Below are positions 19,714-20,457 of a stretch of 64,000 nucleotides of DNA, piece after piece. The notes beneath the pieces were generated by a model. The model was not told the origin of the DNA, made no database searches, and was given only the letters and a program-made list of their open reading frames with translations. How positions within the stretch are numbered: the stretch's first letter is position 1; the number at the start of each line of letters is the position of its first letter. Made by a program: the position numbers and the translations under genes. This DNA comes from a virus (taxonomy: Duplodnaviria > Heunggongvirae > Uroviricota > Caudoviricetes): the IMG/VR virus record IMGVR_UViG_2671180921_000012. One strand, 5' to 3'.

Positions 19714-20457
19714 ATGAGCACTTCAGCACAAAACCAATCAATCGAAAATGTATGTATCCCTGATGTCCTGAATGCCGGTATCCCGGCCATTATCCAGAAC
19801 ATCCGGGCCGCGCAACGCCGCGTTAGTTGTGATGACCTCACAGCGCGTTTTTTTGATAATGCGGTTCAGTCAGCGGAGATGCTTCACGCACAGCTTATTG
19901 ATGTTTATAACGCAGAAGCTGATAGCCATAACTCCCTGGTAGATGCAGCTGAAAATATGCAGTTGGATCTCGGTCTGAAGGGTAAAGAAATTGAAGAGCT
20001 TCAGCTGGAAATTGAACATTTGAAACGCCAGCAACAGGACGCGATCGACGATGCGACGCATGACGCCAACCAGCGTGCTGATAATGCCGAACGTATAAGC
20101 ATTGAGCTGGAAACAAAACTCAATGAAATGACCGCGATGGTTGAACTGCGGAACTCACAGATTTCAACGCTAAAATCTCAATATAAAGAGATCATGAAAC
20201 TTGATCCTTTTAACCTTGAGAAACGCTATAACAAAGCTAAAAGCGAGCGACAGGAACTGCGTAAGCAGGTCGCCGACCTTAACCAACAGCTCAAAAAACT
20301 ATTAAAGATGCAAGCGAGGCGCGCGTGGCATTTGCTAATAAAAAAGCAGAGGTTACCGCGCTGGTTAATGAGAATGCCAAATTTGCGACGCTCAAGAAGG
20401 AAATGTATGGCATTACTGAGCGCCGTTTCCCTGCAAGCAAACTTCATCCGACGTTAG
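19714..20457 (+). CDS. Coiled-coil protein (247-aa ORF; C-terminal tail of doubtful reality)
   Basis: Heptad-rich sequence up to about codon 195; last ~50 codons are Arg-rich and overlap the next gene. Confidence 0.45.
   Translation: MSTSAQNQSIENVCIPDVLNAGIPAIIQNIRAAQRRVSCDDLTARFFDNAVQSAEMLHAQLIDVYNAEADSHNSLVDAAENMQLDLGLKGKEIEELQLEIEHLKRQQQDAIDDATHDANQRADNAERISIELETKLNEMTAMVELRNSQISTLKSQYKEIMKLDPFNLEKRYNKAKSERQELRKQVADLNQQLKKLLKMQARRAWHLLIKKQRLPRWLMRMPNLRRSRRKCMALLSAVSLQANFIRR

What the first reader, a model, noticed from the sequence alone, without database searches (positions are those of the whole stretch)
20283..20330. Possible -1 frameshift site joining a coiled-coil ORF to the downstream ORF
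ORF 19714..20457 and ORF 20325..20975 overlap by 133 nt in different frames. The downstream frame opens at 20283 (after a TAA at 20280-20282) exactly at an A6 run (TCAAAAAAC, 20291-20299). Upstream of the run the first ORF encodes a clean heptad-like coiled coil; after it the same frame gives an Arg-rich, low-complexity tail that looks non-coding, while the -1 frame continues with coiled-coil-like sequence (TIKDASEARVAFANKKAEVTALVNEN). A -1 slip on AAA-AAA would give a fusion of about 420 aa. A sequencing error or two genuinely overlapping genes are alternatives.
Basis: seen in the sequence. Interest (0 to 1): 0.5.

Follow-up and report, generated by a model that had tools for sequence, protein, structure and literature searches.

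The report
One-base deletion splitting phage P1 pmgS
The two overlapping ORFs are the halves of one known, dispensable phage P1 gene (pmgS) that has lost a single A from a run of seven, so this is an ordinary frameshift lesion and not a programmed ribosomal frameshift signal.

Summary
ORF 19714..20457 and ORF 20325..20975 overlap by 133 nt in different frames, the second frame opens at 20283, and an A6 run lies at 20293-20298. A -1 shift there gives a 420-aa protein.

The window is a P1-like phage-plasmid. That 420-aa protein is PmgS (P1_gp093), a single 1263-nt ORF in P1. P1 and almost all relatives have A7 where the window has A6. The nearest plasmids differ from window 19494..21554 only by that one A. 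In exact-pattern scans, 163 relatives had A7 and 2 had A6. Orthologues at 53-71% identity are single 420-426 aa ORFs, and the four whose DNA I read have no A-run at the site.

In the upstream frame the site is CTC AAA AAA CTA. That is only a weak A_AAA tetramer, with no convincing stimulatory structure and no Rfam match. Programmed frameshifting is therefore not supported.

The lesion is most likely a genuine A7-to-A6 slippage deletion (about 0.68). The window has no other homopolymer indel that is absent from all relatives compared, across 64 kb. A separate public assembly matches it exactly over 15.8 kb and also has A6. A sequencing error remains possible (about 0.23). pmgS is reported nonessential for P1 lytic growth. 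Interest is low.

The parts
19414..19479 (+). Control region of the pmgR-pmgS operon. It holds C1 repressor operators OpmgRa (19414-19430) and OpmgRb (19463-19479, minus strand), and the predicted sigma-70 promoter PpmgR (19415-19443).
   Evidence: Window 19400-19500 is 100% identical to P1 NC_005856. The features are transferred from the P1 annotation and were not tested here.
19494..19712 (+). pmgR (72 aa), intact. Its stop codon lies 1 nt before the pmgS ATG.
   Evidence: ORF list, P1 annotation, and the same 72-aa gene called in all relatives. It is essential in P1 according to PMC9024508.
19714..20298 (+). 5' part of pmgS: codons 1-195, comprising the N-terminal helix and the coiled-coil hairpin up to ...DLNQQLKK.
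   Evidence: Identical to PmgS residues 1-195 of NZ_CP128914.1 and CP088789.1. Matches phrog_1660 positions 1-201.
20293..20298 (+). The lesion: an A6 run where P1 and relatives have A7, a 1-nt deletion. Zero-frame context is CTC AAA AAA CTA.
   Evidence: Alignment with P1 and 813R1. It is the only difference from two plasmids across 19494..21554. Counts are A7 109 / A6 1 in IMG/VR and A7 54 / A6 1 in metagenome plus GTDB contigs.
20299..20457 (+). Out-of-frame tail of the truncated product: 52 Arg-rich codons, then TAG at 20455-20457. It is not a conserved coding frame.
   Evidence: Translation. Between orthologues, substitutions in this stretch concentrate at position 3 of the other (PmgS) frame: 15/17/37, 13/12/33 and 15/14/35.
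20298..20975 (+). 3' part of pmgS in the -1 frame: PmgS residues 196-420, comprising the rest of the second coiled-coil helix, an alpha/beta domain and a C-terminal helix-hairpin-helix-like bundle. The frame is open from 20283. Possible internal starts are GTG 20325 (GAGG 5 nt upstream) and ATG 20403.
20995..21030 (+). Intrinsic terminator after pmgS: an 11-bp stem followed by a T7 run.
   Evidence: Terminator scan. Its T-run varies in length among relatives: T6/T7/T8 = 4/133/9.

Best explanation
The site is a genuine single-base deletion in pmgS of a P1-like phage-plasmid. It most likely arose by replication slippage in the gene's longest A-run (A7 to A6).

The deletion shifts the frame after codon 195, in the middle of the second helix of the predicted coiled-coil hairpin. 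Normal translation should therefore give a 247-aa product: PmgS residues 1-195 plus 52 out-of-frame residues. The alpha/beta and C-terminal helix-hairpin-helix-like domains (residues 196-420) would be lost. They could still be made at a low level by internal initiation (GTG 20325 or ATG 20403) or by background slippage on the A-run.

Nothing indicates that the shift is programmed. The lesion could persist because pmgS is dispensable for P1 lytic growth. By the P1 annotation it also lies in a C1-repressed operon, so it would be silent in the plasmid-prophage state.

Shown here: gene identity, position and nature of the indel, its rarity, its absence from orthologues, and the cleanliness of the surrounding sequence. 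Inferred: that it is a biological mutation and not a read error, and what products are made.
For: Gene identity:
- The window is 98.5-99.4% identical to P1-family phages. The region is annotated pmgR-pmgS-pap, and pmgS is one 1263-nt CDS in P1.
- The window has A6 where P1 has A7.
- CP088789.1 and NZ_CP128914.1 are identical to window 19494..21554 apart from that one A.
- The repaired product equals a 420-aa protein recorded on 191 contigs, in a cluster of 2600 members.

The window sequence is clean:
- Against NZ_CP128914.1, the A-run is the only indel in 22.7 kb (window 4253..27012).
- Each of the few other 1-nt indels found against CP088789.1 or NZ_CP128914.1 is absent against the other plasmid, so each is shared with a relative.
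- Window 40976..64000 shows no single-base homopolymer indel.

A6 is reproduced elsewhere:
- Logan contig ERR2777517_188 is 100% identical to window 9714..25518 (15,805 nt), including A6.
- Contigs from SRR31140449 and SRR17993295 carry A6 on different SNP backgrounds. All 14-15 neighbouring genes are intact, and there is no other homopolymer discrepancy in 12 kb.
- Further A6 copies occur on other backgrounds (L009, L016, L133).

The lesion is tolerable: pmgS is scored nonessential by CRISPRi and by deletion (PMC10695390, citing PMC9024508). The C1 operators and promoter upstream are identical to P1.
Against: - No raw reads were available, so an error at this one homopolymer cannot be excluded.
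- The only A6 copy among 629 PLSDB plasmid records is CP121349.1. That record has many homopolymer deletions and fragmented genes, so its A6 is probably an artefact.
- None of 631 RefSeq complete E. coli records matched the 78-nt A6 query exactly. An A6 copy with a nearby SNP would fall in the same identity band as A7 and could have been missed.
- ERR2777517 may be the read set from which the window itself was assembled. In that case it is not independent evidence at the level of reads.
- PMC9603915 lists pmgS among 21 'extremely conserved' genes of P1-like plasmids, which argues that loss is not neutral.
Confidence: 0.68

Rival explanations
1. Sequencing or assembly error. The real plasmid has A7 and an intact pmgS, and one A was dropped in a homopolymer during base-calling, consensus building or polishing.
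For: A 1-nt deletion in a 7-nt homopolymer is the classic error of several sequencing platforms (general knowledge). Other public records show exactly this. CP121349.1 has A6 together with G5-to-G4, T6-to-T5 and other deletions and many split genes. The ERR13669369 contig adds one base at every run of 7 or more, giving A8 here. A6 is very rare in curated complete genomes.
Against: The window shows no other homopolymer indel absent from all relatives compared, across 64 kb. Its other runs agree with a relative, including a T8 near 22947, an A7 near 22855 and a T9 near 40297. A separate assembly is identical over 15.8 kb and also has A6. Two other contigs with no other homopolymer discrepancy carry A6 as well.
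Confidence: 0.23
2. Programmed or functionally exploited recoding. Ribosomes shift -1 on AAA AAA, or RNA polymerase adds an A on the run, so that the A6 allele yields useful amounts of full-length PmgS alongside a truncated coiled-coil product.
For: A -1 shift after the second AAA, or one extra A in the mRNA, would restore exactly the wild-type sequence ...LKK|TIKD.... A-runs decoded by tRNA-Lys are among the more shift-prone sequences in E. coli, and A_AAA tetramers occur in some IS elements (PMC4066793).
Against: - In the zero frame the motif is C_AAA_AAA, so only the A_AAA tetramer applies and not an X_XXY_YYZ heptamer.
- Tetramers without a stimulator averaged 0.147% against 0.112% for their no-motif controls. 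A_AAA was the weakest of the six tetramers that responded clearly to a strong pseudoknot (PMC4066793).
- The best downstream hairpin starts at least 11 nt after the run in the MFE structure, with its G+C-rich core starting about 20 nt after. Its z-score is only -1.5, and 13 of 200 shuffles fold as well.
- I saw no AGGAGG-like Shine-Dalgarno sequence in the 10-14 nt upstream (my reading).
- No Rfam family matches.
- The two-ORF layout is not conserved: 163 A7 against 2 A6. The four distant orthologues whose DNA I read have AAG AAG CAC, GTC AAA TTA, AAG GCA or AAA AAG CAA at the site.
Confidence: 0.03
3. Phase variation. The A-run is a contingency tract that switches PmgS on and off in the plasmid population.
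For: A6 recurs on at least five different SNP backgrounds, which indicates repeated independent events at this run.
Against: - The tract is short (7 nt).
- Variant frequency is 2 of 165 (1.2%), similar to the control T7 run in the same gene at 1 of 154 (0.6%).
- It is far below the unconstrained intergenic T-run after the gene at 13 of 146 (8.9%). Run length in the coding sequence therefore appears to be under purifying selection and is not maintained as a switch.
- The run is absent from the four orthologues whose DNA I read.
Confidence: 0.04
4. Two genuine, independently translated overlapping genes.
For: ORF2 has a GTG preceded by GAGG at a 5-nt spacing.
Against: Both ORFs map to consecutive halves of one family profile. 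All orthologues, from 26% to 99% identity, are single proteins aligned straight through the junction. The ORF1 tail shows no coding constraint. The GAGG is also present in the intact A7 relatives.
Confidence: 0.01

Closest known systems
pmgS (P1_gp093, YP_006559.1) of bacteriophage P1; PHROG phrog_1660 'PmgS-like head morphogenesis'; annotated shtB in phage P7
   Same: The same gene in the same pmgR-pmgS-pap context. DNA is 98.5-99.4% identical across the P1 family. The repaired protein is identical to PmgS of NZ_CP128914.1 and CP088789.1.
   Different: The window copy has A6 in place of A7 at nt 580-586 of the gene, so it is split into a 247-aa ORF and a 216-aa ORF. The function of PmgS is unknown. 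The 'morphogenetic' label is only putative, and knock-down and deletion give no plaquing defect (PMC10695390).
E. coli dnaX tau/gamma programmed -1 frameshift (A_AAA_AAG heptamer, upstream Shine-Dalgarno-like element, downstream stem-loop)
   Same: An A-rich Lys-codon run inside a gene, where a -1 shift changes the C-terminus.
   Different: dnaX has a full heptamer in the correct frame plus two stimulators, and is conserved (established knowledge; PMC4066793, PMC5009743). Here there is only a tetramer, no stimulator and no conservation.
IS1 insAB' frameshift on A_AAA_AAC
   Same: The window string AAAAAAC is the same seven letters as the IS1 motif. IS1-type sites work without a strong stimulator (PMC4066793).
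   Different: In the window the zero frame is CTC AAA AAA CTA, one register away from A_AAA_AAC. The P-site tRNA would have to re-pair on CAA. The arrangement is also a rare allele, not the family norm.
Homopolymer frameshift pseudogenes and the 'problem indels' partly corrected by translational or transcriptional slippage (reviewed in PMC5009743)
   Same: A 1-nt loss in a poly-A run of a dispensable gene. Background slippage would regenerate the exact wild-type protein.
   Different: Six As is below the run lengths usually linked to appreciable transcriptional slippage (about 9 or more; my recollection, not checked here). No expression data exist for this allele.

Membership tests
PmgS family (phrog_1660) | Sequence match over the whole family profile | tested here: met
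   ORF1 covers profile positions 1-201 (E = 1.1e-79) and ORF2 covers 193-403 (E = 1.2e-102). The repaired 420-aa protein covers 1-403 of 405 (E = 5.6e-195).
PmgS family (phrog_1660) | Conserved gene context pmgQ-pmgR-pmgS-pap with the C1-controlled PpmgR region | tested here: met
   The P1 annotation and the window ORFs correspond. The control region is 100% identical to P1.
PmgS family (phrog_1660) | A single uninterrupted ORF of about 420 codons | tested here: not met
   The window gene is 1262 nt instead of 1263 and is split at the A-run. It is a disrupted member of the family.
Programmed -1 ribosomal frameshift site | Slippery heptamer X_XXY_YYZ in the zero frame | tested here: not met
   The zero frame reads CTC AAA AAA CTA, so only the Z_ZZN tetramer A_AAA is present. 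Such tetramers are barely above background without a stimulator (PMC4066793).
Programmed -1 ribosomal frameshift site | Stimulatory element: a stable structure 5-9 nt downstream and/or a Shine-Dalgarno-like sequence upstream | tested here: not met
   The MFE structure of 20299-20380 has z = -1.5 (13 of 200 shuffles fold as well). Pairing starts at least 11 nt after the run, and the G+C-rich core starts about 20 nt after. I saw no AGGAGG-like motif just upstream. No Rfam frameshift element matches.
Programmed -1 ribosomal frameshift site | Conservation of the two-frame arrangement and of the slippery motif among orthologues | tested here: not met
   A7 and a single ORF occur in 163 of 165 scanned relatives and in all 19 phage records. 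The four 53-71% identity orthologues whose DNA I read are single ORFs with no A-run.
Programmed -1 ribosomal frameshift site | Both the frame-0 product and the trans-frame product detected | not testable with these tools
   This needs proteomics, Western blotting or a reporter assay.
Phase-variable contingency locus (simple-sequence tract) | Tract length varies often among close relatives, more than at comparable control tracts | tested here: not met
   The A-run varies in 2 of 165 relatives, the coding T7 control in 1 of 154, and the intergenic T-run in 13 of 146.
Sequencing artefact (homopolymer miscall) | Other homopolymer indels in the same assembly, and the variant not reproduced in independent data | tested here: inconclusive
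   The window has no other homopolymer indel absent from all relatives compared, across 64 kb. The A6 is reproduced in Logan contig ERR2777517_188. The reads could not be inspected, and the independence of that run from the window's source is unknown.

The most novel reading that the evidence does not exclude
The A-run in pmgS could be a recurrent, mildly adaptive 'off' or 'leaky' switch. Under this reading, P1-like plasmids repeatedly lose one A, and the A6 allele still makes a trickle of exact wild-type PmgS by -1 slippage on AAA AAA, together with a free coiled-coil fragment. That would tune a nonessential lytic-cycle protein. The evidence does not strictly exclude this, because A6 recurs on at least five backgrounds and a -1 slip restores the exact protein.
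Probability: 0.04. Interest if true: 0.35.

Novelty: already known. Interest (0 to 1): 0.07.

Why it matters
It matters mainly for annotation. The two ORFs should be annotated as one disrupted pmgS gene (frameshifted or pseudogene), not as two genes and not as a recoding site. The case also shows that an ORF pair joined at a homopolymer can look like a frameshift signal when it is a 1-nt indel. Comparison with close relatives settles it. If the A6 allele is real, it is a natural knock-out or truncation of a conserved P1 gene of unknown function, and could be used to look for a PmgS phenotype.

Tried and rejected
1. A dnaX-like truncation in wild-type P1. With A7, a -1 slip would read AAC TAT TAA and stop, giving a coiled-coil-only product. 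I rejected this because the zero frame does not form a heptamer and the A-run is absent from the four orthologues whose DNA I read.

2. A downstream stimulatory structure. The fold is not significant and is badly spaced.

3. Known RNA elements. There is no Rfam hit in 19400-21100 at E up to 1.

4. A compensatory change creating a new start. The GAGG before GTG 20325 differs from P1 (GAAG), but it is also present in the intact A7 plasmids nearest the window, so it is not a response to the frameshift.

5. Function of PmgS by sequence. Pfam gave only sub-threshold coiled-coil noise. NCBIfam gave only weak SMC coiled-coil hits far below cut-off. The PDB sequence search found nothing significant.

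7. Counting A6 in RefSeq E. coli and PLSDB with a 78-nt query. This worked only partly, because an A6 copy with a nearby SNP falls in the same identity band as A7. The exact-pattern scans of other collections are the cleaner counts.

Full report
**1. Checking the observation.**
- TAA lies at 20280-20282, so the downstream frame opens at 20283.
- The string TCAAAAAAC lies at 20291-20299, with the A6 run at 20293-20298.
- ORF1 (19714..20457, 247 aa) reads ...DLNQQLKK and then an Arg-rich tail.
- ORF2 (GTG 20325..20975, 216 aa) lies in the -1 frame and overlaps ORF1 by 133 nt.
- Reading 195 codons, stepping back one base and reading 225 more gives 420 aa.

**2. What the locus is.** The region is 98.5-99.4% identical to bacteriophage P1, P7 and other Punavirus genomes, where it is annotated pmgR-pmgS-pap.
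- In P1 (NC_005856), pmgS is one CDS of 1263 nt (420 aa) at 82452..83714. It is preceded by pmgR and by two C1 operators with the promoter PpmgR. That control region is 100% identical in the window.
- The window stretch 19714..20975 is 1262 nt, one base short.
- Alignment places the missing base in the homopolymer. P1 and phage 813R1 have CTC AAA AAA ACT (A7); the window has CTC AAA AAA CTA (A6).
- Plasmids CP088789.1 and NZ_CP128914.1 are identical to window 19494..21554 except for this single A.
- The two window ORFs match positions 1-201 and 193-403 of one PHROG profile, phrog_1660 'PmgS-like head morphogenesis'.
- The repaired protein is an exact sequence recorded on 191 public contigs, within a 90%-identity cluster of 2600 members.

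**3. Is the two-frame arrangement conserved?** It is not.
- All 19 phage records span one more base than the query or otherwise carry A7.
- Among 680 PLSDB plasmids and 676 RefSeq E. coli records with the gene, the listed best hits span 1263 nt.
- A 78-nt query centred on the run found no exact A6 match in 631 RefSeq records, and one in 629 plasmids (CP121349.1). The caveat is that an A6 copy with a nearby SNP would share an identity band with A7 copies.
- Exact-pattern scans allowing A6 to A8 gave A7 109 / A6 1 in IMG/VR, and A7 54 / A6 1 in metagenome and GTDB contigs.
- Orthologues at 26-71% protein identity are all single 419-428 aa proteins aligned straight through the junction.
- The four whose DNA I read (53-71% identity, 420-426 aa; one from Salmonella, one from Cronobacter by the source names) have AAG AAG CAC, GTC AAA TTA, AAG GCA or AAA AAG CAA at the site, so they have no A-run.
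- In the stretch corresponding to the ORF overlap, substitutions between orthologues fall mainly on codon position 3 of the PmgS frame (for example 15/17/37). The ORF2 frame is the constrained one, and the ORF1 tail is not coding.

**4. Does the site look like a frameshift signal?** It does not.
- In the zero frame the motif is C_AAA_AAA. This is not an X_XXY_YYZ heptamer; only the tetramer A_AAA applies.
- In the systematic E. coli study of Sharma et al. (PMC4066793), tetramers without a stimulator averaged 0.147% against 0.112% for their no-motif controls. A_AAA was the weakest of the six that responded clearly to a strong pseudoknot.
- The best structure downstream (20299-20380) has z = -1.5. 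Its G+C-rich core begins about 20 nt after the run.
- I saw no AGGAGG-like Shine-Dalgarno element in the 10-14 nt upstream.
- No Rfam family matches 19400-21100.
- A -1 slip, or one extra A in the mRNA, would regenerate exactly the wild-type ...LKK|TIKD... sequence. Some background rescue is therefore expected in principle, but nothing indicates selection for it.

**5. Mutation or sequencing error?** I could not see reads, but several comparisons bear on this.

*(a) The window sequence is clean.*
- Against NZ_CP128914.1 the A-run is the only indel in 22.7 kb.
- Each of the few other 1-nt indels found against one plasmid is absent against the other, so each is shared with a relative.
- The remaining 23 kb (40976..64000) shows no single-base homopolymer indel.
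- Other long runs in the window (T7, A7, T8, T9) agree with relatives.

*(b) A separate public assembly agrees.* Logan contig ERR2777517_188 is 100% identical to window 9714..25518 (15,805 nt) and also has A6.

*(c) The exact frameshifted 247-aa product occurs on four further contigs.*
- SRR31140449 and SRR17993295 carry A6 on different SNP backgrounds. Every neighbouring gene is intact and there is no other homopolymer discrepancy in 12 kb.
- SRR034319 is a short contig on another background.
- CP121349.1 is full of homopolymer deletions and split genes, so its A6 is probably an artefact.
- A6 also occurs in an IMG/VR contig (L016) and a metagenome contig (L133), on yet other backgrounds.
- One contig (ERR13669369) has A8, but it adds a base at every run of 7 or more and is clearly error-prone.

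*(d) A control comparison puts the frequency in context.*

| Run | Variants / total |
|---|---|
| pmgS A-run (coding) | 2 / 165 |
| pmgS T7 run (coding) | 1 / 154 |
| pmgS A6 run at nt 628 (coding) | 0 / 164 |
| T-run after the terminator (intergenic) | 13 / 146 |

A6 is therefore an ordinary sporadic homopolymer lesion in a sequence where run length is otherwise held constant.

I conclude that a genuine slippage deletion is the more likely explanation (about 0.68), with an isolated read or consensus error next (about 0.23).

**6. Consequences (inferred).**
- The AlphaFold2 model of PmgS, built from 12 aligned homologues, has mean pLDDT 77.6. It shows two long helices (41-160 and 166-232), an alpha/beta domain, and a C-terminal helical bundle.
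- The frameshift falls at residue 195/196, inside the second long helix. The expected main product is therefore a truncated coiled-coil piece with a 52-residue nonsense tail.
- The C-terminal domains would be made only through internal initiation (GTG 20325 with GAGG 5 nt upstream, or ATG 20403 as gene callers chose) or through background slippage.
- pmgS is scored nonessential for P1 lytic growth by CRISPRi knock-down and by deletion (PMC10695390; the deletion library is described in PMC9024508).
- By the P1 annotation the operon is C1-repressed in lysogens, so such a lesion could persist.
- Other sporadic pmgS lesions also exist in public data: frameshifts at other positions and in-frame coiled-coil deletions. 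Even so, the gene is listed among the most conserved genes of P1-like plasmids (PMC9603915).

**7. Verdict.** The proposed programmed -1 frameshift is not supported. This is a known gene with a commonplace 1-nt homopolymer indel, so interest is low.

Noticed in passing
window 19843-19849 (T7 run inside pmgS): A second homopolymer in pmgS also varies in length in public records. Phage vB_EcoM-813R1 (ON470617.2) lacks two Ts here, and its pmgS is annotated as two CDSs. One IMG/VR contig (L082) has T6, and the error-prone ERR13669369 contig has T8.
   Followed up: partly
window ~21024-21030 (T-run of the terminator after pmgS): The intergenic T-run is length-polymorphic among relatives: T6/T7/T8 = 4/133/9. 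That is about 7-15 times the variant frequency of the 7-nt runs inside the coding sequence.
   Followed up: partly
L125/L006 = CP121349.1 (E. coli plasmid, broiler chicken): This unannotated GenBank plasmid has many 1-nt homopolymer deletions, and many P1 genes are split compared with clean relatives. Its A6 in pmgS is therefore probably a sequencing artefact.
   Followed up: partly
L010 = Logan ERR13669369 contig 201: Every homopolymer of 7 or more in the compared 6.4 kb is one base longer than in relatives (T8, A8, T8, A8, T9). This indicates a systematic over-calling error in that data set.
   Followed up: no
window ~55678: A (TCG)n trinucleotide repeat has one unit fewer than in NZ_CP128914.1, an in-frame 3-nt difference. 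By position in NZ_CP128914.1 (about 14287) it falls inside the small minus-strand CDS 14251-14562.
   Followed up: no
[not shown]
   Followed up: partly
PmgS variants P0047, P0048, P0050 and P0066-P0069 (public proteins): Rare in-frame deletions within the coiled coil (401, 392 and 381 aa) exist in public assemblies. So do frameshifts at other positions that end in the same +1-frame tail. pmgS lesions are therefore not confined to the A-run.
   Followed up: no
window 16854-17516 and 17414-18040: Two ORFs overlap by about 100 nt and correspond to pmgO and pmgP, which are annotated with the same overlap in P1. PGAP annotation of the nearest plasmids omits pmgO.
   Followed up: no
window 27012-28182, around 8328-8337, and 53530-53745: These are short, highly divergent or rearranged segments relative to the closest plasmids. 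Otherwise identity is 99.3-99.8%.
   Followed up: no
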